From assembly GCA_021081985.1 (NCBI GenBank), contig GCA_021081985.1_3639.2: DNA of 54,988 bases. One strand, given 5' to 3'. The position numbers were made by a program, and so were the translations under genes. This document shows positions 8,359 through 52,286 of this stretch, piece by piece. Origin of the DNA: a phage. The notes beneath the pieces are model-generated. The model saw only the letters and a list, made by a program, of their open reading frames with translations. It did no database searches and had not been told where the DNA came from. Position 1 is the stretch's first letter; every line of letters begins with the position of its first letter.

Positions 8359-9371
8359 CAGTCCTCCTTAGATTCTTGTAGATAAATCTCTTCAAGAATT
8401 TTACCCTGTACCCCAATGACAATAATATCTGGTGCACCTGCTGGTTTTGGTGTTCCTGTCAGAACTTCATAACGACAGCAACGGCATTTTTTCTGGTTAT
8501 AGTCATAAGGGACACTGACAATATCTGCCGGATCCACAGATACTTCTATAAGTACCCTTGAAGTCTTCTCAAAGGTAGCGGCATAGTCAATAGATGCAAC
8601 ATGCAAACCTTGGCTACATGTTCTATTGGGATTATCCTCAACCATATTACGTGGCATGGAAATAACTTGCCCTTTATAATTAGGAACTTTACCTGTATGG
8701 CAATCTCGTGGACCATCTACAGTTATCTTAATTTTCTTGTATGCCTTAATATTTCCGTTTTCAAGGATCTCAAGATCATTATGTTTTACAAAATCATAAA
8801 GCATTTTAACAGAAGCATACGACGGGTTGTGTAGCAACTTCTGCATGAATTTGACATATCGTTCGTCAAAGCAATCATTCTCAATATCTTTAATGATTCG
8901 TTTAGCAATACTGCTTTCCTGTTTTTGACCGTGCCAATACAAAACACTATCTATCAATACTAAATTATCACCAAAATCAATGGTCTTTTTCTTTTCTGCT
9001 TCTTTCTCTTCTAAAATACGTTGTACAGCAGCATCTATTCCTCCTGTCCAAAGGATAACACCAACTTCTTTGAAGATGGGGCTGCTACTATTTAGAGTAT
9101 ATTGTTCACCATTTAACAAAGTGATATGGATATTATCTTGGGTAACAAGGACAATTGGTTGTGCAAGAGTATGCACGGGCTTCATAATATCTACAGGATC
9201 TTCCTTAGCCTTTTTGGTTGTCGGCATTCCTTTTTTGGGTGCAACTGTCCAGCGTTTAAGAACATTTAGACCACGATCAACAACCACCATATTATTTTTC
9301 TTAGCGTATTCACGAGCTTCACGACGTGACATGAATAAAGGATTACTCACCTTTTTCTCCTTTGTTGTCAA
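8358..9371 (-). CDS. rIIB: rIIB-like protein
   Basis: 337-aa ORF immediately downstream of and overlapping the rIIA-like gene, the conserved rIIA-rIIB order. Assignment is by synteny and size, not a verified alignment. Confidence 0.45.
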   Translation of the reverse strand: MTTKEKKVSNPLFMSRREAREYAKKNNMVVVDRGLNVLKRWTVAPKKGMPTTKKAKEDPVDIMKPVHTLAQPIVLVTQDNIHITLLNGEQYTLNSSSPIFKEVGVILWTGGIDAAVQRILEEKEAEKKKTIDFGDNLVLIDSVLYWHGQKQESSIAKRIIKDIENDCFDERYVKFMQKLLHNPSYASVKMLYDFVKHNDLEILENGNIKAYKKIKITVDGPRDCHTGKVPNYKGQVISMPRNMVEDNPNRTCSQGLHVASIDYAATFEKTSRVLIEVSVDPADIVSVPYDYNQKKCRCCRYEVLTGTPKPAGAPDIIVIGVQGKILEEIYLQESKED

Positions 9372-11343
9372 TAAATTTACGATACTCTAGCATCTCTGGA
9401 GTATTGAAATGCCTAATATTAATGTATTTTAACAATGGGTAGCGATCTTTCTTAATTTGTAGCAGCTTTTTACCAATTCTCTTCTTGGCCTCTATCATCC
9501 ATAATGCTTTCTCACGGCTATCTTCGTAGCCAGGAACTGAACAATAACTGGGCATGTTTACCTTCATCTCCCATTTTGGGAAACTGGCTACCATCACGCC
9601 GAAGTAGCTAAGTTCTTTAACAATGTTATGATACTCATGGTCTTTCCCTACTTCTTGGTATAAATGATATTCAAGAAGGTTAGTTTTTGCAAGAGCATGA
9701 ATATCCTCCTCAGTTATAACCCGTGCCTCATCTGGCAGCCAACTTGATCTGTTTAAAGGCACAATATATAACTTACCAACCACACCGAGATTCTTGAGAA
9801 ATGTTGGTGGTTGCTTTCTCCAAGATGTTCTAAGATTGGAAACGTATCCTAACGGGCATAATCCTTTCACCTGCCCACCCCAGTATACCATAGCCGCCTC
9901 AATATCTTCAAATTGAGCACGGGAAATACGGGTTACATCTACGGAGCCATCTTGGTTGATTATCCAAACTTTATGACCTGGTTCGTAATAACCATAGCCA
10001 CCATACTTTTTATCTGCTTTTTGCACTGGTCGTTTTTCAAGTTCAGATAACTTGAAAATCATCCCTTCAAAGAATTTATCACTGTATAAGGACAGAGCGT
10101 AATCAGCATCGGTTATAAATGATCTCTTACCAAACTTCTCTGCGAGCCAGTTACATTTAGAGCGCACATACTTGTGATCATCATTGTAAACCAGTGGATG
10201 ACCATTCATCAACTCTGCGTATGAATATCTCTCATCCTTACCACGGCGTGAGCCTTCGCCACCATATGTTTCACAGTAATCTATGTAAGAACCATCAGTA
10301 TAATTCTTGAACTTATTTGCAATAAAAGCAGCACCATATTTTGTAGCGAAATAACCACCAACATATTTCATATGTTCAAGAACTGCTTTTAAAGTTGGCA
10401 GATCGCTTAATTCTTTTGTAATTTCTTCTCCACGAAGTCGGATAGCTTTCGTCACAAAACTTTCAAGTTTATCACGGAATCCTCCGTCATTCTTTCCTTC
10501 TACTGTCCATTCTCGGCCTGGGTCTACATTACAATCCCCAATAGGGATAGATACCGTCATCATGGGCAGTTCTTTACGAGTCGAGAGATAATCAGAGAGA
10601 TATGGTTGTTGCCCCATGATGACAACACTATCAGCGTTTCTCGACATGCTACTATACATCTCAAGAACCCAGCCAGTCTCCTCATCCTCATAACGATACT
10701 GAACAGGATAAGTACGATCTTCAATCTGCGTTTTAACAAAAGGATCATTAATGATATATGGAAATTTAGCATAGCGAAGGCATTTTACAATAGCCAGACG
10801 ATAAGCTCCTGTTTCCCAAGTGTTTACGTTAAATTTAACCTCTACACCATTCTCCTCTGTTGTTTCACAAGAAAATAAAGGCACAACCTCTGGTATTCCG
10901 CTGTTTTTGTGAACAGAGTATGTTGTTTTCACTCCATCTTTAACAGAAACAACTGTGAACATATCTGTTACTGCAAGAGGTGCTTTTGACCCAATACCTT
11001 TCGCGCCAATCAGATCATTACTGTTTCTTTTTGTGGACTCACCAATCATCATGAATGTACGTGTTACCATCTCATGATCCATACCTAACCCTGTATCCTT
11101 AACAGAATACCAAGGTTCCAAGTCTGTTGGTGAGTGGATGATGATGGGTTTATCAGAACACCCTGCCTCTGTATGAGCATCTACAGCGTTGAAGAGAGGC
11201 TCTCGTACTGCTGCTAAAGTTTTATCTTTATAAATTCCATCGATAAGAATACTGAAAGTCTCAGGATTCATTGCAATTGATGCTTGGTATCTTTCTACGT
11301 TCCCAGTTACCTGGACTTTGTTGTCAGATCTTTGAATAATCAT
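9343..11343 (-). CDS. rIIA: rIIA-like protein with GHKL/HATPase_c ATP-binding domain
   Basis: 666 aa; N-box REPLFNAVDA, G1 box DTGLGMD and G2 box GAKGIGSKA of the GHKL ATPase fold, as in phage rIIA; followed by the rIIB-like gene. Confidence 0.6.
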   Translation of the reverse strand: MIIQRSDNKVQVTGNVERYQASIAMNPETFSILIDGIYKDKTLAAVREPLFNAVDAHTEAGCSDKPIIIHSPTDLEPWYSVKDTGLGMDHEMVTRTFMMIGESTKRNSNDLIGAKGIGSKAPLAVTDMFTVVSVKDGVKTTYSVHKNSGIPEVVPLFSCETTEENGVEVKFNVNTWETGAYRLAIVKCLRYAKFPYIINDPFVKTQIEDRTYPVQYRYEDEETGWVLEMYSSMSRNADSVVIMGQQPYLSDYLSTRKELPMMTVSIPIGDCNVDPGREWTVEGKNDGGFRDKLESFVTKAIRLRGEEITKELSDLPTLKAVLEHMKYVGGYFATKYGAAFIANKFKNYTDGSYIDYCETYGGEGSRRGKDERYSYAELMNGHPLVYNDDHKYVRSKCNWLAEKFGKRSFITDADYALSLYSDKFFEGMIFKLSELEKRPVQKADKKYGGYGYYEPGHKVWIINQDGSVDVTRISRAQFEDIEAAMVYWGGQVKGLCPLGYVSNLRTSWRKQPPTFLKNLGVVGKLYIVPLNRSSWLPDEARVITEEDIHALAKTNLLEYHLYQEVGKDHEYHNIVKELSYFGVMVASFPKWEMKVNMPSYCSVPGYEDSREKALWMIEAKKRIGKKLLQIKKDRYPLLKYINIRHFNTPEMLEYRKFIDNKGEKGE

Positions 11344-11363
11344 TCAATACCTCTATGAACTAA

Positions 11364-11882
11364 TTATGCGTCAGGATGCTTGTAAAAAATATGATTCCCA
11401 ACCTTCACTGTTTTCACCATAACTTTTGCCCAAGATGGCCTAACAGTAGTTGCATGATAGTACGTTGCTGATTTTGTGTAGTCAAGAGCTTTGTATAAAC
11501 TTTTGTGGTCTTTATGCAATCTTATCAATATTTTAGCATAAAATTTAGCTCTTAACCATCTATCCTTTTCATAGACTTTAAAGGATTGCCCACCGAATGT
11601 CCAAGAGAATTGCCCTCGCTGATAAACTATTTTCTTGATAGTATGCGGGAAATTCTTGTCATCTTTTCTATTCAATGTGACAAAAGCGACACCCATCATT
11701 CCATAATCACCTTCTCCTCTTCCCTCTTTATACAAGTTACAGGCAAGAATATTAAGCTCTGTATCATTCTTCTTGCAAATGTGAAGAACTTGGGGCTTCT
11801 TTGCACTTTCTTTGGCTAGAACAGGGGTAATAGACAGAGAAAGTGCACAGCAAACTGCAAATAATAAAGATCTTATTTTCAA
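11364..11882 (-). CDS. Cell wall hydrolase, SleB/CwlJ (Hydrolase_2) family, with N-terminal signal peptide; proposed TTG start
   Basis: LYKEGRGEG, GVAFVTLNR and RGQFSW motifs match the SleB-family signature. With a TTG start the N-terminus is MKIRSLLFAVCCALSLSITPVLA, preceded by GGAG; the ORF-track start at 11987 would run through the upstream intergenic hairpin. Confidence 0.6.
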   Translation of the reverse strand: MKIRSLLFAVCCALSLSITPVLAKESAKKPQVLHICKKNDTELNILACNLYKEGRGEGDYGMMGVAFVTLNRKDDKNFPHTIKKIVYQRGQFSWTFGGQSFKVYEKDRWLRAKFYAKILIRLHKDHKSLYKALDYTKSATYYHATTVRPSWAKVMVKTVKVGNHIFYKHPDA

Positions 11883-11923
11883 AACTAACTCCAGACAAAT
11901 AAGCCCCATAAAGGGGCTTTCTG

Positions 11924-12268
11924 TTAGCGATGGAAACGAATATCTCCAGACACTGTGTTTACACTTCCATGGATTGTATTTGCGCAAACATCACCAGACA
12001 CCGAAGATACATTGCCTAAGATATCTTTCTCAACATTAATATCCCCAGATGTTGAGATCACACCATTAGAGACATTTCCATAAACATTGATACCACCTGA
12101 TGTTGTACGTACCTCTTTAGCATCACCTTTGATAATAACTGTAATGTTTTTATCGTTTGTGGTATGAACTAAATCACCATTGATATAGACATTATCACCC
12201 TTAGTGGTGATAGAGATACTACCATTGGTATAGTTTCCAGAAATTGTATTACCATTAATCGTAATCAT
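11924..12268 (-). CDS. Beta-solenoid repeat protein (bactofilin-like), start trimmed to MITINGNT
   Basis: Repeating G-x-V/I-S-G-D-I/V units (GNVSNGVISTSGDINV, GNVSSVSGDV, GSVNTVSGDI); the N-terminal 36 aa of the ORF-track call look like out-of-frame readthrough. Confidence 0.4.
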   Translation of the reverse strand: MITINGNTISGNYTNGSISITTKGDNVYINGDLVHTTNDKNITVIIKGDAKEVRTTSGGINVYGNVSNGVISTSGDINVEKDILGNVSSVSGDVCANTIHGSVNTVSGDIRFHR

Positions 12269-12443
12269 TGTTTTGTTTCTCTTTAACAATAGGTGCTTTC
12301 TGAACAGAGTATACAAATGTTTTATTGTCTTCAATAAACTTTCTGCCCTGTTCTTCATCTTCAAAAATAATTGTGTCACACTTTGCCTTTAACATACCAC
12401 GTTCTACAGTTGTGTGTGTCGTAGAAACAATTAAAGCCATCAA
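12255..12443 (-). CDS. Hypothetical small protein
   Basis: 62-aa ORF between the RNA ligase and repeat-protein genes. Confidence 0.3.
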   Translation of the reverse strand: MMALIVSTTHTTVERGMLKAKCDTIIFEDEEQGRKFIEDNKTFVYSVQKAPIVKEKQNNDYD

Positions 12444-13474
12444 AACACCTCGTTAAGTTGTTCCATGTACCAACTACGGGCTTTATTTGTTGTAAATTTT
12501 GCCACGTCTTTCATAGAAAGAGAATTGGCTTCTAACACATCTGCTTCTTCTTTGTTGATATCGCGGTTAACCCATGCGATAAATGCCCCCAGAGATGCGA
12601 TGTCCAATCCAATTTCTTGCAACCCTTGTCGTAAACGGTTCTCAGTAACTGCATACTCCACAAAATCTTTGATAGATTGCAGTTTCACAGGATCAACGGC
12701 AGCCAGTGTTTTCACTTTAGAGACAGAATGTTTTTGCCCTTTCACTTTAAACCAAAGTGCAGAAACATGTGCCAAGTGGCGATCTTTAGGTGTCCATACC
12801 ACACCCTCACCAACACCAGATACGCCAAAATATTTACCTACTGGGCACTCTTTTTCTACACCTTCGGTAATCTGTGCAATTTCTGATTGCACTGTCTCTG
12901 GCATGTTAAAAGGAATATCCAGTTCCCACTTACCAAAAGTTAAAATATTATAAATACGTTGTTCTGGTAATCCAATGCCAAGAATATCGTCTAAGGCTAA
13001 CCATTTTCGATGGTCATTCTCTTTTCCTACTGCCACACGGAAAATAGTAAAGAAAGGCATGATTTCAGATACCGCAACACCTTTCTGGATACCTTTTCCT
13101 GAAAATTCCCCAGCAATTTCTACTGGGAACTTAAATTCAATACCCCGATCTTCGCAGATCTGCTTGACTTGCTCCAACAGGGGTTTATGGTCTTTTTCAA
13201 CCATAAAGGCCATAAACCCATAATTATCTTCTTCCAAAGACAAAACGCGTTCTTTGGACTGGTACACAACCTCATCTTCAGAATTAAAGACTACACGGCA
13301 ATTAGTCCCGTGAATTTTAACTGTTCCTACATAAGAAATGAGATATTGATCTGGAGAGGCAACCTTACGCTTTATATTGCCATTCTCATCACGACCATCA
13401 TAAGTCAGACGGTCATTAACCGCTCGGATAACGTTGCGAAATTGACTAGTGCTTGGGTACTTAGTTGCTTGCAT
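12440..13474 (-). CDS. RNA ligase, Rnl2-like (ATP-dependent nucleotidyltransferase)
   Basis: 344 aa; motif I lysine in VKIHGTN (the KxHGxN adenylylation motif of T4 Rnl2); size matches the Rnl2 family. Confidence 0.65.
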   Translation of the reverse strand: MQATKYPSTSQFRNVIRAVNDRLTYDGRDENGNIKRKVASPDQYLISYVGTVKIHGTNCRVVFNSEDEVVYQSKERVLSLEEDNYGFMAFMVEKDHKPLLEQVKQICEDRGIEFKFPVEIAGEFSGKGIQKGVAVSEIMPFFTIFRVAVGKENDHRKWLALDDILGIGLPEQRIYNILTFGKWELDIPFNMPETVQSEIAQITEGVEKECPVGKYFGVSGVGEGVVWTPKDRHLAHVSALWFKVKGQKHSVSKVKTLAAVDPVKLQSIKDFVEYAVTENRLRQGLQEIGLDIASLGAFIAWVNRDINKEEADVLEANSLSMKDVAKFTTNKARSWYMEQLNEVF

Positions 13475-13847
13475 TACTATCTTCCTTATTAATAAAGGTC
13501 ACACCAAGAGTGGCCTGGGCAAGAAGTTTCGTGATCTCCTGGCTCCATACAGGACTGGAGATAAAATGTTGTAATTGGAGGCTACCTAAGCGATAGGCGC
13601 TGTTCATCGTAATAGCATAGATTTCTCCATCGTGCATAATCATGCTTTCGACAACAGAAGTCCTGATATTAGAACCACTAAATCCACGCTTTTTGAGGTC
13701 ATCTGCTAAGTATCCGCAGATACAACGCACATCTTTTGTATAACCAAAACCGAAATAGGGTTCAGCACCAAACAGGATACCAGCGTATCTCTTCCCACAG
13801 ACATAGGTATCTTTAGATACGCCTGTTACAGATTTACTTTCCATCAT
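13461..13847 (-). CDS. Hypothetical protein
   Basis: 128-aa ORF; no motif recognised. Confidence 0.35.
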   Translation of the reverse strand: MMESKSVTGVSKDTYVCGKRYAGILFGAEPYFGFGYTKDVRCICGYLADDLKKRGFSGSNIRTSVVESMIMHDGEIYAITMNSAYRLGSLQLQHFISSPVWSQEITKLLAQATLGVTFINKEDSNASN

Positions 13848-38433: not shown

Positions 38434-38626
38434 ACTTACACCCTTAAAAATAAGGAAAACAGACAGGCGACCCCACCAAATACATTGACACAACTTAGAA
38501 GAATACTCCACAATCTTTTCCAGCCTTTAACAGCAGCACTTTCCGAGAATCCGCAGAGTGCCAATATGAAATTGGAAATTCCAAGAAAGGCCAGTAGTAA
38601 ATTTAATAGTATATCTATCATCGGCA

Positions 38627-38983
38627 TCACCCAAACCACATTACTATCCCTAATACTACGAAAAGAAACCCAAGTAGGCAAAAGGAGGTTATTCTCTCTT
38701 TCTTTTTAAACTCTTTTGTTGGGTTGTAATTTTCCTGTTTTAATACAAGGTTCTCATCATACCAAGTAATCCGTTGCCCGTTCAGGTTATGATACCGCTT
38801 ATGAAGCTGCACAGCTTTTTTGGCAATATCTCCTGTTGGGTATGGGTTTGAGTACATGGCCTCGCCATCATCTGAAACTACTGTTTGGTTTATCGCATTA
38901 CCATCGTAGTACACTTCCCAGCAGGATTTAGTTATAACCCCATCAACCATGTCTTCTATGTGGTATATATTGTACTTGCTCAT
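38627..38983 (-). CDS. Hypothetical protein with C-terminal hydrophobic segment
   Basis: 118-aa ORF. Confidence 0.35.
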   Translation of the reverse strand: MSKYNIYHIEDMVDGVITKSCWEVYYDGNAINQTVVSDDGEAMYSNPYPTGDIAKKAVQLHKRYHNLNGQRITWYDENLVLKQENYNPTKEFKKKERITSFCLLGFLFVVLGIVMWFG

Positions 38984-39351
38984 GCGTACTCTTTTATCTC
39001 CTGGATTGCATCTTTCGATAGCCAGCTATCAACAGGAATACTACTGAAATCTTTGTGCCAACGATGCGGTTTGTGTCCCTCCCTATGATCAAGGGTACAT
39101 ATATCCTCTGGCACTTTAAAGTGAATGCCTTCGATATCGTAATAGTTTCCGTCTATAAGGGTATAGACGTGCCCTTGTATCCTGCTATAGCATATCTGCG
39201 CCTGTGGGAAAATGTGTTTAAGTACTAATGCCACTTGGTAGCACTTTCCATTCTGACCAATCCACACACTATCTACTTGTGGTGGGAAAATATCTCTGAT
39301 TTTTCTTATCAGAGATGTTATATGGTTCTCTACACAACCTGCCATACTCAT
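38980..39351 (-). CDS. Hypothetical protein
   Basis: 123 aa; ATGA overlap with the downstream gene. Confidence 0.4.
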   Translation of the reverse strand: MSMAGCVENHITSLIRKIRDIFPPQVDSVWIGQNGKCYQVALVLKHIFPQAQICYSRIQGHVYTLIDGNYYDIEGIHFKVPEDICTLDHREGHKPHRWHKDFSSIPVDSWLSKDAIQEIKEYA

Positions 39352-39626
39352 CGCCTTGTTTTTAGCAGTGCCTTGAAAAATTTTCTCGCTGCTTTTTCTG
39401 CTTGCCCCTTACGAGAAAACTCGTTCTCTCTGAATCTCCATTTCCCAGTGTCTTCGTCCTTCCAGACTTCTGTACTAAGGAAATCAAGAATATTATCTGT
39501 AATCAATTCAATATCCTCATCTGTAAACCAATATTTTATGGCCCCGCTATAGACCTCTCGGAGGTACTCTCTACGGTCATCACCAGAAATCATATTTTTC
39601 CCTGATGGCTGCTCCCAACCCAACAC
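39348..39626 (-). CDS. Hypothetical protein
   Basis: 92-aa ORF. Confidence 0.35.
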   Translation of the reverse strand: MLGWEQPSGKNMISGDDRREYLREVYSGAIKYWFTDEDIELITDNILDFLSTEVWKDEDTGKWRFRENEFSRKGQAEKAARKFFKALLKTRR

Positions 39627-39767
39627 CTATAACTAGTAGTACTGCCACGAATACCAACCAAAAGAGATAAGCATTGCCAAAAATGGTTGTTGGAAACACA
39701 ACAATAAACAAAACAATCAGTACGACAGGAACCCCGATACACAAATTCTTCAGCACTTCCTTCATAA

Positions 39768-40088
39768 TTACAAACTGACCTCTTTCTTTGGTAAAGGTTT
39801 AAAGCATGGCGGTAATTCACCACCTAGCGACCAACGTAGAAGATAATTATACCCTGGGAGTCTCTTGATACCGCCTTCTCCTTTATACATCCACGGAACA
39901 AGCGTAGATTCAAATTTTCTCTTGCCTGTCTTTGACTCGTACAATAGCCACATACCTTGGGTATTGGTTCCTGTATCCTTCCAGTTTATCTGCCAATCTG
40001 ATGTTCCCACTAATTCGAAATTGTCTGTTTCTTTCTTTTTCTTAAACCATCCAAACATTACTCTATCCTCACTGATACGTAGCGCCAT
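39768..40088 (-). CDS. Hypothetical protein
   Basis: 106-aa ORF. Confidence 0.35.
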   Translation of the reverse strand: MALRISEDRVMFGWFKKKKETDNFELVGTSDWQINWKDTGTNTQGMWLLYESKTGKRKFESTLVPWMYKGEGGIKRLPGYNYLLRWSLGGELPPCFKPLPKKEVSL

Positions 40089-40215
40089 GTTCTTTTGTAA
40101 TATTCCACAGTTTCCTCCAGTTTGTCAAGAGGAACTCTAGTTTTCAATACCCACCAGTTCCCTAGATATTCGGCAGAACATGCACTCATCCTGCCACATA
40201 TGGTATACGTTGCCA

Positions 40216-40416
40216 CTACATCCTCCACGTTAGTTTCTGAGCGATCTCCAACAAGGCATCTATCTTATGCATATACTCTTTCCTTTTCTCACTGCCAGGA
40301 GGGAATTGGTCTCTCGTTTGCATCAAGGTTTTTATCTCTTCGGACAGATGATTAAGGATTTCAACGCGCTCTCGTTTCCGACCTAGTTGTTCAATTTCTT
40401 TGTCACGACAATTCAT
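40216..40416 (-). CDS. Hypothetical small protein
   Basis: 66-aa helical, charged ORF. Confidence 0.3.
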   Translation of the reverse strand: MNCRDKEIEQLGRKRERVEILNHLSEEIKTLMQTRDQFPPGSEKRKEYMHKIDALLEIAQKLTWRM

Positions 40417-40496
40417 AATGTACCTTACAGTGTTGTCAAACTATGAGAGTATGATAATATACGGTACAACTATTTACAATAGTAGGAGACGATCTA

Positions 40497-40777
40497 TGAC
40501 TGTAAAAATCCCAAGAGGCGGTAAACCAGACAGAAATGAATGTGATAAGCGTGTAAGGGTAGGGAGAATGTGTCTGATTTATGGAATAACCTATCCACCA
40601 ATGGTGCGACTTAATGGTAAAATATGTAAGGTCATCGACATACCAAAAGATAACACAACACGCTTCTTGTGCAAGGTCAAAGGTGAAGAGAAGGTTTTTA
40701 ACATCCCACACAAAAACCTAACAGTTTTGGATCTTAATGACAACATTGTTATCTCCAAATACCGTTGTATAAACTAA
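40497..40777 (+). CDS. Hypothetical protein (plus-strand gene inside the minus block; start trimmed to MTVKIPRGG)
   Basis: Promoter-like TTGTCA ... TGATAATAT upstream, RBS TAGGAGACG, and a bidirectional terminator just downstream. Confidence 0.4.
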
Positions 40778-40782
40778 AATAA

Positions 40783-40810
40783 AAGCCCCACATGGGGCTT
40801 TTATTTTTAT
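40783..40810. terminator. Bidirectional rho-independent terminator between convergent genes
   Basis: AAGCCCC-ACAT-GGGGCTT flanked by an A-run upstream and a T-run downstream. Confidence 0.6.
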
Positions 40811-41547
40811 TCAAAATCATCAACACCGCTATCGGTAAGGTTTTCTCTGCTCGAAGGTTTTGTCGAAAGAACTTGCTCAAGCAGAGAGGAAAATTTCTGC
40901 AAATTACTTACAGAAGAAGCCCCTGCTGCCATGGCAAGCATATCCACTTCTTTTTCGGTAGGTTGCGTCCAGTCTAGAAACATCTCTTTCATGTACAACG
41001 TTGATGTCCCTATTGGTGTGGCGTGGTCAACCCTATCAGCATAGACCCAGAAAAGAACTTCTTTCTCTATACATACACACAAAGCAGCACCCAACGAGTA
41101 TCCTGCAACGAGGGATGGATATCTTGCAACGAGGATCTCGACATTCAGGTCATCCCAGTGAAATACAACACCCAAACACTTCATATCCACAATGTCTTCC
41201 ACTGCGGGTCTTAGCTCCTCATGGGAAGAAAAGGAGTCATAGTTGATATTCTTTATGAATTTAAGAACGTCTTGGCGGTTGTAGGCACAATCGTTATCAC
41301 CTTGCTTCCAGTAACCCCAAAATGAAGTCGATAAATTCAACCAAAAACTTGCAGTTGTCCCTAATGTCTCAGCCAGTTTTTCAGCCACATCCTCTGATAC
41401 CTCTTCCATGTTATAAAGGATGGTTCTCAACTTATTTACCGGTATACCAGATCTGTCAGCAAGATCATCCACACACCAACCTAATGGATCCAGATATTCG
41501 TGGATAATAACCTCCCCTGGTGACACTGGTGCTCTTTCTTTCTGCAT
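40807..41547 (-). CDS. HTH (XRE/HigA-like) DNA-binding protein with a C-terminal domain of unknown function
   Basis: N-terminus after the internal Met: PVSPGEVIIHEYLDPLGWCVDDLADRSGIPVNKLRTIL ... ASFWLNL resembles HigA-type HTH antitoxins; RBS AAAGGAGAA precedes that ATG. Confidence 0.5.
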   Translation of the reverse strand: MQKERAPVSPGEVIIHEYLDPLGWCVDDLADRSGIPVNKLRTILYNMEEVSEDVAEKLAETLGTTASFWLNLSTSFWGYWKQGDNDCAYNRQDVLKFIKNINYDSFSSHEELRPAVEDIVDMKCLGVVFHWDDLNVEILVARYPSLVAGYSLGAALCVCIEKEVLFWVYADRVDHATPIGTSTLYMKEMFLDWTQPTEKEVDMLAMAAGASSVSNLQKFSSLLEQVLSTKPSSRENLTDSGVDDFE

Positions 41548-41600
41548 TCTTTCTCCTTTCTCTCTACCAGAAAACCCTGCTTTGCAGGGTTTTGTTACTA

Positions 41601-41804
41601 TCAGCATTTAGGCGAGCATTTATCGCACGGGCATGAAATTCCGTGGAAACACAAACCTGTTCCGTCTTTCTTGACCCCTGTTCCACCACATTGGGGACAA
41701 CTATCGTGTAAGCATTTTGTTTTTGTTGTCTCCTCTTTATCTTTATTAAAGAAGTTTTTCATAATCATTTTCTGTTGTTCAATCGTAAACATTTGCGTCC
41801 CCAA
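41601..41804 (-). CDS. Small Cys-rich zinc-binding protein
   Basis: 67 aa with C-x2-C and C-x-C clusters (CPQCGGTG, CPCDKCSPKC). Confidence 0.35.
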   Translation of the reverse strand: MGTQMFTIEQQKMIMKNFFNKDKEETTKTKCLHDSCPQCGGTGVKKDGTGLCFHGISCPCDKCSPKC

Positions 41805-42085
41805 AATCTTTCAAGTGCTTCTACCTCTTCCATGTTTGGGAAGATACCATAGAAACAGAACTTACCTTTAGAGAAGTACGGAATAAATACCCGTCCATCA
41901 GATGTTTGAAACATCTTGTCAAAATTTGGTAGCTTCAGGTGGGATTTTATAGCCTCTTTAATACTTTTATCCCATTGATGCTGCCATTTACAGGCTTTTA
42001 GGTACTCACTAATATTGTAAGAACCTACTCTCCCCAAGATACTGGTGAGAAACTTTTTGTTTTTACTAATAATCTTCTTTTTCAC
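41765..42085 (-). CDS. Hypothetical protein
   Basis: 106-aa ORF. Confidence 0.35.
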   Translation of the reverse strand: MKKKIISKNKKFLTSILGRVGSYNISEYLKACKWQHQWDKSIKEAIKSHLKLPNFDKMFQTSDGRVFIPYFSKGKFCFYGIFPNMEEVEALERFWGRKCLRLNNRK

Positions 42086-42314
42086 TCAAAAACCTCGTTT
42101 CTTCAAACTGCTCTGGTGTCAATAAACTTGTTCCTACACGACTGCCATTGCCACACATAATGGGCACGGCAATCATGTGGCTATCCTTTTCTGCATTACC
42201 TAAATCAAGGTACTGCCCATAACGTTTGATAAGTCGGATACTCATTTTTGAATTAGCTAAAGCCCTTGTATTATAGAGATAATCCTCAAGGTACAAATGT
42301 AGAGCGTTTGCCAC
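42066..42314 (-). CDS. Hypothetical protein
   Basis: 82-aa ORF. Confidence 0.3.
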   Translation of the reverse strand: MANALHLYLEDYLYNTRALANSKMSIRLIKRYGQYLDLGNAEKDSHMIAVPIMCGNGSRVGTSLLTPEQFEETRFLSEKEDY

Positions 42315-42316
42315 CT

Positions 42317-42565
42317 TTAAAGATTTTGATAAGAATAATTTATTACGCCGGACCAGTTTTTTTTTTCTTCATGCAACCCTCGCTTGTGCCTGTACATTGC
42401 TAAAGGCCATACAGAACTCACTATAAAGCATTTCCATGCCCAACCCCATGGAGTCTTTGGTGCATAAGCTCGTTCAAGCCATTTACTCTTTTCCATCTCT
42501 GCCGTATGTACAAACCATACGGCAATATACAGTGCAACTATAATGTAGATAAAGCCATTAATCAT
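42317..42565 (-). CDS. Small membrane protein
   Basis: 82 aa; hydrophobic N-terminus MINGFIYIIVALYIAVWFV. Confidence 0.3.
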   Translation of the reverse strand: MINGFIYIIVALYIAVWFVHTAEMEKSKWLERAYAPKTPWGWAWKCFIVSSVWPLAMYRHKRGLHEEKKNWSGVINYSYQNL

Positions 42566-43619
42566 TCATCTTATCCCAACACATTTGTTGTGCTGTCATC
42601 AAAACATCGGCAGCAAAGTTAAGATCTGTTGTCTTCGGTAAATGCGTGTTCTTGTACAGAGTGTTACGAATATAATCATCCTTCTCTTCTGCCCAAGCCA
42701 AGAGCTTCTCCAAAGACCATGCACCATTTCTGATTGCAAGAAGCTCCTGAGCATCAGGTCTTTTTACAAGAACTTTCCCTTCCGTCAGGATTTCTTCTGC
42801 TTGTCGCATCAACCTAACCAAGTGCATACCATGCTTTGAATCGAAGCCATACTTTTCTTCTAACTCATGACGTGCTGGGTTTCTGTTTTCAACCCATGTC
42901 CAGTAGTTCTTATGCTTTTCCTTTGCTTGTTTATGGTCATCTGCTAGATACTTAACGATTAAAATTGGTTTACGTTTCTTATCCTCGCCAGAGAACTGTT
43001 CGTATGGGACTTTACGAATAGAGCCGTCAGAGTTAAACAAGCCAGCATTGTCGTGTGTTCCGATCACGCCATAGATATTATCACCCATTGGTAAAAAGAC
43101 ACACAACTTGTTAAGGTCATCCAGCATTTTCTGGAAGTCTTTGTGTTTTGTAAGATTATCATCCATCCACGAGTGTGTCAAGCGCATGAACTCTTTTTGT
43201 GTTGGTTGCTCTTTAGGCTGCGGGTTATTAATCCATTTATTATGGCCTTTGATACGCTTCAGTTGCGCCATCGCGTACCCAGAAAATGTAAAAGCAACTT
43301 TGCTGGATAGGAGTTTTGGCGCTTGCTCGCGTAGGTACTCGTAAACATCTGAAGTTTGCAGAATGTCACCTCTATCAACAAACATAAGCTCGATGATGTT
43401 TGGGTTCATATCAACGAACAACTTCATGTAGTTTGTTAGCTCATACAGCTTACCATCCTCTTCATCAATAAGAGTCATTTCTCTGTCAACGAAAAATGGG
43501 GTAAGAATGCTTTTAGGCTCTGCACAATAAATTCCGCGAATATCCACATCGGATGTTGGTAAGTTAGTTCCATAGGCAATACTACCGGAGTAACAACGCA
43601 TTAGTTCTAGTTTCTTCAT
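42558..43619 (-). CDS. Pol-beta superfamily nucleotidyltransferase
   Basis: 353 aa; N-terminal G-S-x4-G-T-x4-S-D-V-D-I (GSIAYGTNLPTSDVDI), the minimal NTase signature shared by OAS/CD-NTase-like and RNA-modifying NTases. Confidence 0.55.
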   Translation of the reverse strand: MKKLELMRCYSGSIAYGTNLPTSDVDIRGIYCAEPKSILTPFFVDREMTLIDEEDGKLYELTNYMKLFVDMNPNIIELMFVDRGDILQTSDVYEYLREQAPKLLSSKVAFTFSGYAMAQLKRIKGHNKWINNPQPKEQPTQKEFMRLTHSWMDDNLTKHKDFQKMLDDLNKLCVFLPMGDNIYGVIGTHDNAGLFNSDGSIRKVPYEQFSGEDKKRKPILIVKYLADDHKQAKEKHKNYWTWVENRNPARHELEEKYGFDSKHGMHLVRLMRQAEEILTEGKVLVKRPDAQELLAIRNGAWSLEKLLAWAEEKDDYIRNTLYKNTHLPKTTDLNFAADVLMTAQQMCWDKMND

Positions 43620-43996
43620 TGTTGTACCTTTTTGTCTTTTCTTGCATTATCCCAAAAATTAAGGATATTTTGGTATCGGATCTTGTCTTCCATATATTCA
43701 GCTTCATCCCGAAGATCGCATACATGATCTATTAAGGCACATACCTCATTATGGTATTCTGTATTACTGGTGATGTGCTTAATCATACAAGATCCTGCTT
43801 TCCATTTCGAGAGGGAGTATCTCAGATTATCATCTTTTTCTGTGGGGGAAGCATCAACTAGCACCTTTGCCCTGTTCCCTTGTATCGTTTGTATTGTTCC
43901 TTGGCGCAGTTCGTTATTACCCCAATAGATAAATACTGTATCGCCAACAAATAATCTTGTTCCGCTTGCATCCCTCATTTTATGCCCCCAACACAA
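43616..43996 (-). CDS. Hypothetical protein
   Basis: 126-aa ORF. Confidence 0.35.
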   Translation of the reverse strand: MCWGHKMRDASGTRLFVGDTVFIYWGNNELRQGTIQTIQGNRAKVLVDASPTEKDDNLRYSLSKWKAGSCMIKHITSNTEYHNEVCALIDHVCDLRDEAEYMEDKIRYQNILNFWDNARKDKKVQQ

Positions 43997-44363
43997 AGAA
44001 ATAGTGAACTGTTACCGCTGCGAAGTAAAGCGTTTTGTAAATCAATTGTAACCAGCAATCTCTGTTTGTATACACTTTTCCTGCTAAGATATAGCTACCT
44101 GTTACGAAATGCTCACACACCCAGATCCCCATCAGGAAACCACTAAGCAAGCCTCCTGTTGGTGGTGTTAGTGTGGTAATCATTGCAATTCCTTCGAGGA
44201 AAGTGAATATGAAGAAATATGAGAATCCTTCTCTTGCACATTTTATTCCTCTGCCAGTAACACAGGTATGAACTAAACCTATGAGACAAAAGATCGTCCA
44301 AAGTACATACAATGTATAAACCATAAACCACTTAACCCAAAAAAAAAATGTTAACCTCTCCAA
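43980..44363 (-). CDS. Putative membrane protein
   Basis: 127 aa with several hydrophobic stretches. Confidence 0.35.
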   Translation of the reverse strand: MERLTFFFWVKWFMVYTLYVLWTIFCLIGLVHTCVTGRGIKCAREGFSYFFIFTFLEGIAMITTLTPPTGGLLSGFLMGIWVCEHFVTGSYILAGKVYTNRDCWLQLIYKTLYFAAVTVHYFFVLGA

Positions 44364-44393
44364 CCCTATCAGAGAGGTTTCAGAAATGATTTG

Positions 44394-44891
44394 TTACTCA
44401 CCTTTCAGCTTAAAACTTTTCAATGTTTTGATAAAGTTTTTCTCTGCTGGTGTGTAAGTGTGAACGAAACCTGTTTCTTCACAGGTGTAGGTATCATTAA
44501 TCTCCATCGCATGTTGAGGGATAAATGCACCTTCAGGAGCAGGTTTATATTCTGGGTTGTAGATAAACTCCGGCAGCACAACAGCTACAGCAGTCATTGC
44601 TCCGTTCAAGGCTTTCTTTTCTTCACGCCACCACGCTACTGGGTAAGTCTCTAAAGACATTGCCTGGTCAAGAAAATCTTCAAGCACGGACTGATAACCG
44701 CCATTCAAAACAATAATGGTCTTATCTTCTTCTTTCCAGCATTTCAGCCAATAGTGTGCAGTGATCTGCTCTGGTGTATATGCTTCACCACTATGCAAAA
44801 CCATAAGCTCTGCAATGGCGTGTGCTGATTGGATACCAGCATGGATACCGGAGATATACTGATTAACAATACAATACATTCTTGTTTTCAT
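44394..44891 (-). CDS. Hypothetical protein, possibly PTH2-like peptidyl-tRNA hydrolase fold
   Basis: 165 aa; spacing of AGIQSAHAIAEL, a conserved W, IVLNGG and MTAVAVVLP resembles the PTH2 core. Tentative. Confidence 0.3.
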   Translation of the reverse strand: MKTRMYCIVNQYISGIHAGIQSAHAIAELMVLHSGEAYTPEQITAHYWLKCWKEEDKTIIVLNGGYQSVLEDFLDQAMSLETYPVAWWREEKKALNGAMTAVAVVLPEFIYNPEYKPAPEGAFIPQHAMEINDTYTCEETGFVHTYTPAEKNFIKTLKSFKLKGE

Positions 44892-45106
44892 TTTTGTTTT
44901 TTCCTCAGAATTATTCTATCTTCACTAAAAATTTCCTGTAACCCAGCAGCTATCAGTGCAAATATTGCTACCCACCATACAACTAACAGGAGTACCCCAA
45001 CAAGCAAATCTCTACCTGTGATCTGTTGCTCAATCCTGTAGGTAAAAATAAAGAAAGCTACGGATACTAAAGCACCAACAAAGAAGTAGATAAACACTTC
45101 AGTCAT
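44888..45106 (-). CDS. Small membrane protein
   Basis: 72 aa, two hydrophobic helices. Confidence 0.3.
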   Translation of the reverse strand: MTEVFIYFFVGALVSVAFFIFTYRIEQQITGRDLLVGVLLLVVWWVAIFALIAAGLQEIFSEDRIILRKKQK

Positions 45107-45434
45107 TATCTCTTTTCTCCAAATCCCGTTTCTCCAAGTATCCTTTTACCATAAGTGCTACAGCGTAAATTCCCACAAGACAAATACAAAATGTAAAAAT
45201 AATAGGTAAAACCATTACCGCAAACATCATAAATAGCGGTCCCGCAACAGTAATGAATGCTGTTCCAAGCAACAATAGAAATACTACATATTTATCTGCC
45301 GTCTCATCCACCTTCTTAAGATACACACCTAAACACACAGAAGACAATAGGAATGATAGAATGGACAGCAACAGATACCAATTATCAATAAAGATGATAA
45401 TTGGACCAGCAACATTTTCTAACCACCACATCAT
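45099..45434 (-). CDS. Membrane protein
   Basis: 111 aa, three hydrophobic segments. Confidence 0.35.
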   Translation of the reverse strand: MMWWLENVAGPIIIFIDNWYLLLSILSFLLSSVCLGVYLKKVDETADKYVVFLLLLGTAFITVAGPLFMMFAVMVLPIIFTFCICLVGIYAVALMVKGYLEKRDLEKRDND

Positions 45435-50980: not shown

Positions 50981-50989
50981 AGGATCTCC

Positions 50990-51694
50990 TTAAGAGTTCA
51001 GAACAGATTTGGCTTTATTATAGTATGCAGTTCTTTCAGACAGATGATTTGTCCCACCATTCACAAGTTTTGTTATTTTTACAATATCGTCAGCATCACA
51101 GGCTGCATTAATATCCCGAGATTGCCAGTACCAACCAGCACTTAACACAGCATACTCCGGCTGCTCAAGAAGCTCTGGGTGATTAATCAAATCTATACCT
51201 AGAGCTTTGCCACAATCTCTATAATTGGCATAACCTGTAATCTGGATAAGGCCTCTTCCTTTATACTTTGCCCCATCACCATCTTTTTCCGGTGTATTGC
51301 CGAGTTTTTTTGCTAGGCTACCTGTGTCATACTTATCAAAGTATGCATCATTACCAAGCTCTCTGACATATTTAAACTCAGCAGACTCAACACCTATCTG
51401 GGATAGAAAACCAGCTATCCTGTTTGTGGTGTTAATATCTGTTTTCAAGAAAAGATTGTTTAGGGGTTCAAGGAATTTAGAATTTCTGTTTGCTTTTGCT
51501 CCGATAGGAAATATCTTGTCCAATTGCGCTTGTGTAAGTAGTGTATTCCCCCCGTTTGTCGAGTTAGCTTTTTGTATGCATTTTTCCAATGCGGATTTAG
51601 TGGCGGGGCCATAGATACCATCAGCCCCAGATTTTCCTACACTAAAACCACCATTTATCAGCATACGTTGAATTTCGGCTATCGCAGAGTTCAT
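50990..51694 (-). CDS. Endolysin: N-terminal peptidoglycan-binding domain plus glycoside hydrolase family 19 catalytic domain
   Basis: N-terminal GADGIYGPATKSALE (PG_binding_1-like); catalytic AGFLSQIGVESAEF, KYKGRGLIQITGYANY and SAGWYWQ are GH19 hallmarks. Confidence 0.7.
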   Translation of the reverse strand: MNSAIAEIQRMLINGGFSVGKSGADGIYGPATKSALEKCIQKANSTNGGNTLLTQAQLDKIFPIGAKANRNSKFLEPLNNLFLKTDINTTNRIAGFLSQIGVESAEFKYVRELGNDAYFDKYDTGSLAKKLGNTPEKDGDGAKYKGRGLIQITGYANYRDCGKALGIDLINHPELLEQPEYAVLSAGWYWQSRDINAACDADDIVKITKLVNGGTNHLSERTAYYNKAKSVLNS

Positions 51695-51709
51695 TTTCCC
51701 TCTTCTGTG

Positions 51710-52168: not shown

Positions 52169-52286
52169 TATCTGCCATTACCTGAAACAATTCCTCTTCG
52201 GTAATCTTTCTTTTCTTGCGTTTTCCACTACGCAGTGCCAGCGCAAGCTCTTTTTCATATGCCTTTCGTAGAGTTTTCTTACTCAT

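What the first reader, a model, noticed from the sequence alone, without database searches (positions are those of the whole stretch)
11364..11882. SleB-family cell wall hydrolase with a signal peptide and a probable TTG start
The SleB/CwlJ signature is clear, and a TTG start gives a canonical signal peptide (MKIRSLLFAVCCALSLSITPVLA) preceded by GGAG, whereas the ATG-based ORF call runs through an upstream intergenic hairpin. The phage also encodes a GH19 endolysin with a peptidoglycan-binding domain (50990..51694). A secreted second peptidoglycan hydrolase could be a signal-peptide-dependent lysis enzyme or a virion-associated entry enzyme. No holin was identified next to either.
Basis: partly seen in the sequence, partly recalled or inferred. 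Interest (0 to 1): 0.45.

Follow-up and report, generated by a model that had tools for sequence, protein, structure and literature searches.

The report
Exported SleB-like phage wall hydrolase

Summary
On the minus strand, 11364..11882 encodes a 172-aa protein. It starts at TTG, 6 nt after GGAG and just after an intrinsic-terminator hairpin (11919..11901). It matches Pfam Hydrolase_2/SleB (73 bits). An AlphaFold model (pLDDT 90) matches only the SleB catalytic-domain structures, and the invariant Glu53 aligns with SleB's catalytic Glu.

The window is about 96% identical to Escherichia phage Av-05 (Vequintavirinae). Orthologues in four genera share the layout: terminator, GGAG, a TTG or GTG start, then a leader ending PV[LVI]A. 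The in-frame ATG (11909) lies in the hairpin loop, has no ribosome-binding site, and is in frame only in the Av-05 group.

Best reading: a Sec-exported, signal-peptidase-cleaved periplasmic wall-cutting enzyme, probably made in small amounts. It is accessory to the GH19 endolysin (50990..51694) and not part of the virion.

None of this is new. The rV5, Ro1 and TH18 records already use this start. Buttimer et al. 2020 reported the signal peptide, toxicity in E. coli and conservation across Vequintavirinae. Hydrophobic leaders are the norm in the family (134 of 150 nearest cluster representatives). The function remains untested. Interest is low.

The parts
11364..11882 (-). Coding sequence of the SleB-like preprotein, 172 aa, from the TTG start to the TAA stop (11366-11364).
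   Evidence: Searches give the sequence and ORF. One search gives Pfam PF07486 at 73.3 bits. The same 519-nt ORF is annotated in phage TH18. It is 95% identical to Av-05 'cell wall hydrolase SleB'.
11880..11882 (-). TTG initiation codon.
   Evidence: Read from the sequence. The homologous position is TTG in Av-05, TH18, SPLA5a and Ro1, and GTG in rV5. It is annotated as the start in Ro1, rV5 and TH18.
11889..11892 (-). GGAG Shine-Dalgarno sequence, 6 nt before the TTG.
   Evidence: Read from the sequence. The motif TGGAG is conserved at the same distance in rV5, SPLA5a and Ro1.
11893..11919 (-). Intrinsic-terminator-like hairpin: a 7-bp stem with 5 G-C pairs and a 5-nt loop (11919-11901), then the tail ATTTGTCT.
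   Evidence: Found by the terminator scan and supported by folding. A hairpin with a different stem sequence sits at the same place in rV5, where it is published as terminator t003 with dG -16.0. SPLA5a, Ro1 and CR9 also have one.
11907..11909 (-). In-frame ATG inside the hairpin loop. This is the Av-05 annotated start (181 aa) and is probably not used.
   Evidence: There is no Shine-Dalgarno sequence before it. Ro1 has a loop ATG that is out of frame, and SPLA5a and rV5 have none.
11985..11987 (-). TTG that opens the mechanical 207-aa ORF. It is not a start.
   Evidence: It lies inside the upstream gene, before the terminator, and reads CTG in TH18.
11814..11882 (-). Signal peptide, codons 1-23. 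The n-region is MKIR (+2 charge), the h-region is SLLFAVCCALSLSI, and the c-region is TPVLA, with predicted cleavage at VLA|KE.
   Evidence: Rule-based analysis. The same layout, ending in PV[LVI]A, occurs in orthologues. The AlphaFold model shows a low-confidence N-terminal helix at residues 1-30.
11367..11813 (-). Predicted mature periplasmic enzyme, 149 aa. The Pfam Hydrolase_2 match covers aa 56-167, which is 11382-11717.
11724..11726 (-). Codon for Glu53, in the motif YKEGRGEG. This is the presumed catalytic glutamate.
   Evidence: It is the only invariant acidic column in the 26-sequence alignment. It aligns with the first Glu of YGESRGE in 4F55 and 4FET. The equivalence with B. anthracis SleB Glu151 is my own inference from the chain offset and prior knowledge.
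11739..11777 (-). Cys36 (11777-11775) and Cys48 (11741-11739). This pair is conserved in the Vequintavirinae clade and may form a periplasmic disulfide.
   Evidence: Conservation is seen. Other clades carry a different pair (xCLAxN plus ICxVVYQ).
11924..12265 (-). Upstream gene (context): PHROG 3163, a repeat-rich protein of unknown function. The terminator follows it.
9343..11343 (-). Downstream gene (context): rIIA, starting 20 nt after the SleB-like stop codon. rIIB follows in Av-05.
   Evidence: The SleB-like/rIIA order is conserved in rV5, SPLA5a and Ro1.
50990..51694 (-). The phage's canonical endolysin candidate (context): an N-terminal PG_binding_1-like region plus a GH19 domain, 234 aa.

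Best explanation
The gene encodes a small preprotein that starts at TTG 11882. Its 23-residue N-terminal leader sends it through the Sec translocon, and signal peptidase I cuts it after Val-Leu-Ala23. This releases a soluble, basic, roughly 17-kDa periplasmic enzyme with the SleB/CwlJ (Hydrolase_2) fold. With Glu53 as the catalytic acid, the enzyme cleaves glycan strands of the host cell wall, most likely as a lytic transglycosylase like SleB.

It is a second, accessory wall hydrolase and needs no holin. It acts alongside or ahead of the cytoplasmic GH19 endolysin, and it is not a virion component. Its dose is probably kept low, because the gene can only be transcribed by read-through of the terminator directly in front of it, and it is translated from a weak non-ATG codon.

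Shown here: family membership, fold, the conserved Glu, the start-site architecture and its conservation, and the signal-peptide layout.

Inferred: export and cleavage, bond specificity, low dose, timing and physiological role.
For: Family and fold:
- Pfam Hydrolase_2, 73.3 bits against a cut-off of 27.
- A sequence search of PDB hits only SleB catalytic domains, 4F55 and 4FET.
- The AlphaFold model has pLDDT 90, and Foldseek against PDB gives 4F55/4FET with probability 1.00 and target TM-score 0.75-0.77. The next hit has E > 1.
- Glu53 is invariant in the alignment.

Start site:
- Terminator hairpin, then (T)GGAG, then TTG or GTG at the homologous codon in Avunavirus, Vequintavirus, Seunavirus and Mydovirus.
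- rV5's published terminator t003 is the same element.
- The Ro1, rV5 and TH18 records annotate this start.

Leader:
- +2 n-region, a 19-residue uncharged stretch with no Gly, ending exactly at a (-3,-1) site (VLA|KE) that is followed by charged residues.
- The c-region PV[LVI]A is conserved while the h-region sequence diverges.
- Leaders are also present in CR9, VEcB, T5.083 and Goslar, and in 134 of the 150 nearest cluster representatives.

Activity after export: Buttimer et al. 2020 report that the Certrevirus orthologue CB7_83 has a signal peptide and is toxic when expressed in E. coli (data not shown in that paper).

Accessory role:
- A separate GH19 endolysin is present.
- The canonical lysin differs between genera: GH24 in rV5, GH19 here, an M15 peptidase in CB7. 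The SleB-like gene is kept in all genera.
- T5-like phages have it besides their own lysin and holin.

Not in the virion.
Against: - No signal-peptide predictor (SignalP, Phobius) could be run here. Cleavage is inferred from rules only.
- There is no biochemical evidence of activity for any phage member of this family in the literature I could search.
- As far as I know, Bacillus SleB needs muramic-delta-lactam, which E. coli cell wall lacks. The substrate and the bond cleaved may therefore differ.
- The tail after the hairpin is a weak T-tract (ATTTGTCT), so termination may be inefficient and the 'low dose' idea overstated.
- Phage-specific promoters were not searched for.
- Timing is unknown for this phage. 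The only transcript data are for a 31%-identical homologue in PAK_P3, whose transcript was present both early and late.
Confidence: 0.75

Rival explanations
1. It is a signal-anchor-release (SAR) type endolysin. The N-terminal segment is not cleaved. It tethers an inactive enzyme to the inner membrane until the membrane is depolarised (for example by a pinholin), which then releases it. On this view it is the phage's real, holin-independent lysis enzyme, possibly with thiol or disulfide control involving the leader Cys11/Cys12 and Cys36/Cys48, as in P1 Lyz.
For: - The leader contains weakly hydrophobic residues (3 Ser, 3 Ala, 2 Cys, 1 Thr) in a 19-residue uncharged stretch.
- A leader Cys recurs in Seunavirus, Mydovirus and Avunavirus.
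- Two conserved Cys residues flank the helix that carries Glu53.
- In most Certrevirus phages a two-transmembrane, holin-like gene overlaps the SleB-like gene.
- Reviews equate predicted signal peptides in lysins of Gram-negative phages with SAR export.
Against: - The uncharged stretch is shorter than in the P1 and R21 SAR domains (19 against 24 residues) and has no Gly, against 5 in each of those.
- It ends in a conserved, canonical signal-peptidase site, PV[LVI]A, followed directly by charged residues.
- The leader Cys is absent in rV5, CR9, VEcB, NDO71 and T5.
- The window has no holin or pinholin gene next to it.
- The phage has a separate GH19 endolysin.
Confidence: 0.12
2. It is a virion-associated wall hydrolase that helps the tail penetrate the cell wall at entry.
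For: Many myoviruses carry virion lysins. No data from this phage's own virions exclude it.
Against: - A Sec leader is incompatible with assembly of virions in the cytoplasm.
- rV5 gp2 is not among the proteins the rV5 paper's proteomics text names as detected in virions.
- The PA5oct SleB-domain protein was not detected in virions.
- The gene lies among RNA ligase, rIIA, rIIB and helicase genes, not structural genes.
- Buttimer et al. assign the virion lysin role to a gp25-like baseplate protein.
Confidence: 0.03
3. The protein starts at the ATG at 11909, as annotated in Av-05 (181 aa, MGLICLELVLKIR...). The nine extra residues change or abolish export.
For: ATG is the commonest start codon. 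This start is annotated in both Av-05 records and is the form of cluster P0001. The ATG is conserved in Av-05 and TH18.
Against: - The ATG lies in the loop and 3' stem of the terminator hairpin, with no Shine-Dalgarno sequence before it.
- In other genera the loop has no ATG, or an out-of-frame one. Conservation at the protein level begins at the TTG/GTG codon.
- GGAG sits at the optimal distance from the TTG.
- Even if the ATG were used, the hydrophobic core and the cleavage site would remain.
Confidence: 0.07
4. It is an exported enzyme whose main job is not lysis. It remodels or turns over the cell wall during the latent period. This could feed muropeptide recycling and precursor pools, pre-weaken the wall, or interfere with superinfecting phages.
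For: - The gene is conserved across genera that swap their canonical endolysin.
- It lies in non-late gene neighbourhoods here and in T5-like phages, where it is described as in the 'early-gene region'.
- The PAK_P3 homologue's transcript is present at 3.5 and 13 min, and the authors propose it explains the accumulation of cell-wall precursors.
- The terminator plus weak-start architecture suggests a deliberately low dose.
Against: There is no direct evidence for any such role. T5's own lysin and holin are also in the 'early-gene region', so position says little. This rival overlaps with the main explanation and differs only in the physiological purpose.
Confidence: 0.3

Closest known systems
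Av-05 gp150 'cell wall hydrolase SleB' (YP_009111224 / AII27693) and the 172-aa ORF of phage vB_EcoM_TH18 (UOX40029)
   Same: These are direct orthologues: about 95% amino-acid identity, the same neighbours (PHROG 3163 gene upstream, rIIA downstream), and the same hairpin, GGAG and TTG.
   Different: Av-05 is annotated from the loop ATG, 9 codons longer. TH18 uses the TTG but is labelled 'hypothetical protein'. There are a few amino-acid substitutions.
rV5 gp2, PVP-SE1 'SleB', Ro1 gp3 and CB7_83/CR3_087: the SleB-like protein conserved across Vequintavirinae
   Same: They share the same family, a similar size (166-180 aa), a leader ending PV[LVI]A or ALA, the Cys pair and the catalytic motif. 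The terminator plus non-ATG start is shared with rV5, Seunavirus and Mydovirus. The position before rIIA is shared with rV5, SPLA5a and Ro1. For CB7_83 the signal peptide and toxicity in E. coli are reported.
   Different: Identity is 44-63%. Certrevirus uses ATG, lacks rIIA/rIIB, and most of its members have a holin-like gene downstream.
Bacillus SleB (PDB 4F55, 4FET) and CwlJ, the spore-cortex lytic enzymes
   Same: They share the catalytic-domain fold (target TM-score 0.75-0.77), the YxE(S/A/G)RGE motif with the catalytic Glu, and an N-terminal signal peptide in SleB.
   Different: Identity is only 24-26%. The phage protein has no N-terminal PG_binding_1 domain. The host makes no spores and no muramic-delta-lactam, so the substrate must differ. 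The Cys pair is absent from SleB (alignment).
Exported phage endolysins: signal-peptide type (Oenococcus fOg44 Lys44) and SAR type (P1 Lyz, phage 21 R)
   Same: They also have an N-terminal Sec-dependent leader on a phage wall hydrolase, so access to the cell wall does not need a holin. This comparison rests on my own knowledge and on the review statement.
   Different: Their catalytic folds differ (GH24/T4-lysozyme-like or amidase, against SleB-like). Those enzymes are the phage's only endolysin and sit in lysis cassettes. This one is a second hydrolase far from any lysis gene. The leader looks cleavable rather than SAR-like.
T5.083 and AKFV33 ORF81 'cell wall hydrolase SleB' of T5-like phages, PAK_P3 gp151 and Goslar gp098
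   Same: All are small Hydrolase_2 proteins with N-terminal hydrophobic leaders in large virulent phages of Gram-negative hosts. At least T5, AKFV33 and this phage also carry a separate canonical lysin.
   Different: Identity is 31-39%. They have ATG starts and a different conserved Cys pair (xCLAxN plus ICxVVYQ). PAK_P3's N-terminus is longer and looks like a membrane anchor.

Membership tests
Pfam Hydrolase_2 (PF07486; SleB/CwlJ cell wall hydrolase superfamily) | The profile HMM score is above the gathering threshold over the full domain. | tested here: met
   73.3 bits against a cut-off of 27. Profile positions 1-100 of 100 match aa 56-167.
Pfam Hydrolase_2 (PF07486; SleB/CwlJ cell wall hydrolase superfamily) | The SleB catalytic-domain fold. 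| tested here: met
   The AlphaFold model has pLDDT 90. The top Foldseek hits in PDB are 4F55 and 4FET, with probability 1.00 and target TM-score 0.75-0.77. No other hit has E < 1.
Pfam Hydrolase_2 (PF07486; SleB/CwlJ cell wall hydrolase superfamily) | A conserved catalytic glutamate in the Y-x-E-[SAG]-R-G-E motif. | tested here: met
   Glu53 is invariant in the 26-sequence alignment and aligns with the first Glu of YGESRGE in 4F55 and 4FET. Its catalytic role in SleB is taken from the literature summary and my own knowledge.
Bacillus-type SleB proper (germination-specific cortex lytic transglycosylase) | An N-terminal PG_binding_1 substrate-binding domain before the catalytic domain. | tested here: not met
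   Pfam finds only Hydrolase_2. Residues 24-40 are a short Lys-rich linker.
Bacillus-type SleB proper (germination-specific cortex lytic transglycosylase) | Lytic transglycosylase chemistry that depends on muramic-delta-lactam. | not testable with these tools
   This needs muropeptide analysis of digested sacculi. The host, E. coli, makes no delta-lactam (my own knowledge).
Sec (type I) cleavable signal peptides | A positively charged n-region, a hydrophobic h-region of about 7-15 residues, and a polar c-region with small residues at -3 and -1. | tested here: met
   The n-region is MKIR (+2), the h-region is LLFAVCCALSLSI, and the c-region is TPVLA with Val at -3 and Ala at -1. The maximum 11-residue Kyte-Doolittle mean is 2.73. 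This is a rule-based test only, because SignalP was not available.
Sec (type I) cleavable signal peptides | Actual export and cleavage. | not testable with these tools
   This needs fractionation, N-terminal sequencing or reporter fusions. The only indirect support is the reported toxicity of CB7_83 in E. coli.
Bacterial lipoprotein (type II) signal peptides | A lipobox [LVI][ASTVI][GAS]C with the Cys at about position 15-35. | tested here: not met
   Cys11 and Cys12 are preceded by F-A-V and A-V-C and lie too close to the N-terminus. rV5, CR9 and T5 have no Cys in the leader at all.
SAR (signal-anchor-release) endolysins | An uncleaved N-terminal transmembrane domain of about 20 or more residues, rich in Gly/Ala/Ser/Thr, with no signal-peptidase site. 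| tested here: inconclusive
   The uncharged stretch is 19 residues with no Gly and ends at a conserved (-3,-1) site. This leans against SAR, but composition alone does not separate the two classes.
Canonical holin-dependent endolysin (lysis cassette member) | Encoded next to holin or spanin genes, and cytoplasmic until the holin triggers. | tested here: not met
   The neighbours are a PHROG 3163 gene and rIIA. There is no membrane protein within the flanking genes, and the protein carries an export leader.
Virion-associated peptidoglycan hydrolases | Present in purified virions, usually fused to or encoded among tail or baseplate genes. | tested here: not met
   The gene context is non-structural. 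Homologues are not reported in the rV5 or PA5oct virion proteomes. This phage's own virions were not tested.

The most novel reading that the evidence does not exclude
The exported SleB-like enzyme may not be a lysis enzyme at all. It could be a conserved, dose-limited periplasmic wall-remodelling factor of large virulent phages of Gram-negative bacteria. It matched 1265 phage records, including rV5-like, T5-like, phAPEC8-like, PAK_P3-like and jumbo phages. On this reading it acts during the latent period, for example by raising muropeptide turnover and precursor supply or by priming the wall. Its level would be set by read-through of a conserved terminator and a conserved non-ATG start.
Probability: 0.25. 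Interest if true: 0.55.

Novelty: already known. Interest (0 to 1): 0.2.

Why it matters
For this window the practical outcome is a small annotation correction. The Av-05-type record should start at the TTG (172 aa), not at the ATG in the terminator loop. Some relatives (SPLA5a, NDO71) are annotated without the leader and the catalytic Glu.

Biologically, the gene belongs to a very common but uncharacterised class of phage proteins. They are routinely labelled 'endolysin', yet they carry export signals and coexist with a separate canonical endolysin. Knowing what they do would refine models of lysis and host takeover in rV5-, T5- and PAK_P3-like phages, which are used in therapy and biocontrol. 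It would also matter for anyone mining them as enzybiotics. That question is not opened by this window: it has been visible in the literature since at least 2016-2020.

Tried and rejected
- **Long 207-aa ORF from 11987.** Rejected. It is TTG, not ATG. It overlaps the upstream gene and the terminator, and the codon is CTG in TH18.
- **Lipoprotein signal.** Rejected. There is no lipobox.
- **Obligate partner gene.** The upstream PHROG 3163 protein is shared only with Seunavirus and Mydovirus, not with rV5 or CR9. The downstream holin-like gene described for Certrevirus is absent here, where rIIA follows after 20 nt.
- **Holin search.** The hydropathy scan and PHROG search found only small membrane proteins at 38.4-45.4 kb, with no holin family match and none adjacent to either hydrolase.
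- **Sigma-70 promoter between terminator and gene.** There is no room for one, and the scan found no more sites than the shuffled controls (17 against 15.6). No promoter claim is made.
- **Cys36-Cys48 distance in the model.** This could not be measured, because coordinates are not exposed.
- **SleB structure papers (PMC3415495, PMC3621120).** These are not held. The numbering of the catalytic Glu therefore rests on the chain offset and memory.
- **Experimental characterisation of a phage Hydrolase_2 enzyme.** Six literature searches found none. They turned up only annotations, the unpublished toxicity note for CB7_83, and ladybird Hydrolase_2 proteins that limit B. subtilis growth.
Full report
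**What the window is.** The stretch 10500-13500 is 95.8-95.9% identical at the nucleotide level to Escherichia phage Av-05 (Vequintavirinae, genus Avunavirus) and to phages 18-1-2, 19-1-2, 24-2-1 and vB_EcoM_TH18. The gene order on the minus strand matches the annotated Av-05 genome: RNA ligase, two small ORFs, the target gene, then rIIA, rIIB and a helicase.

**Checking the observation.** Reading the minus strand shows these features:
- The upstream gene stops with TAA at 11926-11924.
- A hairpin AAGCCCC-TTTAT-GGGGCTT lies at 11919-11901, followed by ATTTGTCT.
- GGAG lies at 11892-11889, followed by a 6-nt spacer.
- TTG lies at 11882-11880.
- The frame then reads MKIRSLLFAVCCALSLSITPVLAKESAKK... 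for 172 codons, to TAA at 11366-11364.

The terminator scan finds the hairpin (7 pairs, 5 of them G-C), and it folds better than shuffled sequence (z = -2.4). Pfam gives Hydrolase_2 (PF07486) at 73.3 bits against a threshold of 27. PHROGs gives family 938, 'endolysin'.

The ORF at 50990..51694 (-) encodes 234 aa and matches Glyco_hydro_19 and PHROG 181. Its match to PG_binding_1 is weak and falls below the Pfam threshold. A hydropathy scan found no membrane protein next to either gene.

The codon at 11987 is TTG, not ATG, and is only the start of the mechanical longest ORF. The only in-frame ATG upstream of the catalytic motif is at 11909-11907, inside the hairpin loop. That is the start used in both Av-05 records, giving 181 aa.

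**The start codon.** Comparison settles this as far as sequence can.
- In rV5 (Vequintavirus), SPLA5a (Seunavirus) and Ro1 (Mydovirus), the orthologous gene is preceded by a G+C-rich hairpin with a U-tract, then TGGAG, then GTG (rV5) or TTG (SPLA5a, Ro1). Protein-level similarity begins at that codon.
- The rV5 stem has a different sequence (CCCCGC/GCGGGG), so it is the structure, not the sequence, that is kept. It is published as rho-independent terminator t003, dG -16.0 kcal/mol.
- The loop ATG is in frame only in the Av-05 group. In Ro1 a loop ATG is out of frame, and SPLA5a and rV5 have none.
- The 11987 TTG reads CTG in TH18.
- The Ro1, rV5 and TH18 records already annotate the TTG or GTG start.
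- Between 11882 and the catalytic Glu codon there is no other start codon with a Shine-Dalgarno sequence.

I therefore accept TTG 11882.

**The leader.** The n-region MKIR carries +2 charge. Residues 5-23 form an uncharged stretch of 19 residues with no Gly. It ends in T-P-V-L-A, with Val at -3 and Ala at -1, and is followed at once by Lys-Glu. Orthologues keep this layout while the h-region sequence drifts: rV5 ...LSLPVVA|A, Seunavirus and Mydovirus ...TTTPVLA|KE, NDO71 ...TGPVIA|EP, and CR9 ...ATALA|KD. That pattern is how signal peptides typically evolve.

There is no lipobox. I could not run SignalP, so cleavage remains an inference from rules.

Leaders are the norm in this branch of the family. 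T5.083, Goslar gp098 and VEcB gp190 have them, and PAK_P3 gp151 has a longer hydrophobic N-terminus. Of the 150 nearest 50%-identity cluster representatives, 134 have a hydrophobic 11-residue window before the catalytic motif.

**The enzyme.**
- A sequence search of PDB finds only the SleB catalytic domains 4F55 and 4FET.
- An AlphaFold model built on 26 homologues has mean pLDDT 90. Residues 31-170 are above 86, and the leader is at 58-69.
- Foldseek against PDB returns only those SleB structures (probability 1.00, target TM-score 0.75-0.77). Everything else has E > 1.
- The alignment has eleven invariant columns. One is Glu53, in YKEGRGEG, which aligns with the first Glu of SleB's YGESRGE. 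From the 4FET_B chain offset I equate it with B. anthracis Glu151, the catalytic residue as I recall it. The two structure papers were not available, but a 2025 paper confirms that a catalytic glutamate is essential for SleB's lytic transglycosylase activity.
- The protein lacks SleB's N-terminal peptidoglycan-binding domain.
- Cys36 and Cys48 are conserved in the Vequintavirinae clade. Other clades carry a different pair (xCLAxN plus ICxVVYQ). This fits disulfide formation in the periplasm, but I could not measure the distance between them.

**How it most likely works.** The sequence shows a SleB-fold enzyme with an intact catalytic motif. It sits behind a cleavable-looking Sec leader, a weak start codon and a terminator.

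I infer that the preprotein is exported by Sec and cut after Ala23. The mature, basic enzyme of about 17 kDa would then cut glycan strands of the E. coli cell wall without needing a holin.

Outside support comes from Buttimer et al. 2020. They found the orthologue CB7_83 in all Vequintavirinae genera, predicted its signal peptide, and reported, as data not shown, that it is toxic when expressed in E. coli.

The RBS begins only 9 nt after the hairpin. rV5 has no listed promoter between t003 and gp2. Transcription must therefore come from terminator read-through. Together with a TTG or GTG start conserved in four genera, this suggests selection for a low dose. I hold that as inference only: the T-tract here is weak, and phage-specific promoters were not examined.

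**Role relative to lysis.** The phage has a separate GH19 endolysin. Across Vequintavirinae the canonical lysin is swapped: GH24 in rV5, GH19 here, and an M15 peptidase in CB7. The SleB-like gene stays. T5-like phages also have it besides their own lysin and holin. So it is an accessory hydrolase, not the sole lysin.

I cannot say whether it contributes to lysis or acts earlier. The PAK_P3 homologue (31% identity) has transcripts at both 3.5 and 13 min. Its discoverers proposed that it explains the accumulation of cell-wall precursors during infection.

The virion-entry idea is unlikely, for three reasons:
- An export leader takes the protein out of the compartment where virions assemble.
- Homologues are not reported in rV5 or PA5oct virions.
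- The gene neighbourhood is non-structural.

**Comparison with what is known, and novelty.** This is the direct orthologue (95% identity) of Av-05's annotated 'cell wall hydrolase SleB'. The family has 1265 matching phage records and 9981 cluster representatives at E <= 0.001. The signal peptide, the conservation across the subfamily, the non-ATG start and the upstream terminator are each already in the literature or in deposited annotations. I found no biochemical study of any phage member.

**Verdict.** The only new product is a start-codon correction for Av-05-type records. Interest is 0.2. The open and moderately interesting question is what exported SleB-like enzymes do in large virulent phages. 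It belongs to the family as a whole, not to this window.

Noticed in passing
window 11924-12265 (-): The upstream gene (PHROG 3163, 113 aa as annotated in Av-05) encodes a Gly/Asn/Val-rich protein with repeated G-(D/N)-(I/V)-like units and no Pfam match. Seunavirus and Mydovirus share it at 50-58% identity, but rV5 and CR9 do not. It has a 3-nt indel at its 3' end relative to Av-05 and TH18.
   Followed up: partly
L006 (Klebsiella phage vB_KpnM_NDO71) about 1990-2540: An HNH endonuclease gene sits directly upstream of the orthologue, and the terminator is gone. The leader-encoding frame has no ATG, GTG or TTG after the in-frame TAA: it reads GGGAG, 6 nt, then ATC. The deposit annotates a truncated ORF that lacks the leader and the catalytic Glu. 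SPLA5a is annotated truncated in the same way.
   Followed up: partly
window 38436-45434 (-): This is a run of small predicted membrane proteins: 38436-38681, 39580-39765, 42317-42565, 43980-44363, 44888-45106 and 45099-45434. Two match PHROG 'membrane protein' families and none matches a holin family. They are the only holin-like candidates in the window and are far from both wall hydrolases.
   Followed up: partly
window 11457-11485 (-): A sigma-70-like site (TTGACT, 17 nt, TACTAT) lies inside the 3' part of the SleB-like gene. It could drive rIIA independently. The scan as a whole found no more sites than shuffled controls, so I make no claim.
   Followed up: no
window 50192-53161 (-): The GH19 endolysin gene is flanked by a PhoH-like gene (50192-50980) and a PHROG 7650 hypothetical (51710-52168). 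Related records annotate anaerobic ribonucleotide reductase activase and large-subunit genes beyond these. So this endolysin is not in a lysis cassette either.
   Followed up: partly
L009 (Escherichia phage VEcB) 1410-1476: In this Stephanstirmvirinae phage the SleB-like gene also starts with TTG. However, it is preceded by a good sigma-70-like promoter (TTGCAA, 17 nt, TACAAT) instead of a terminator.
   Followed up: no
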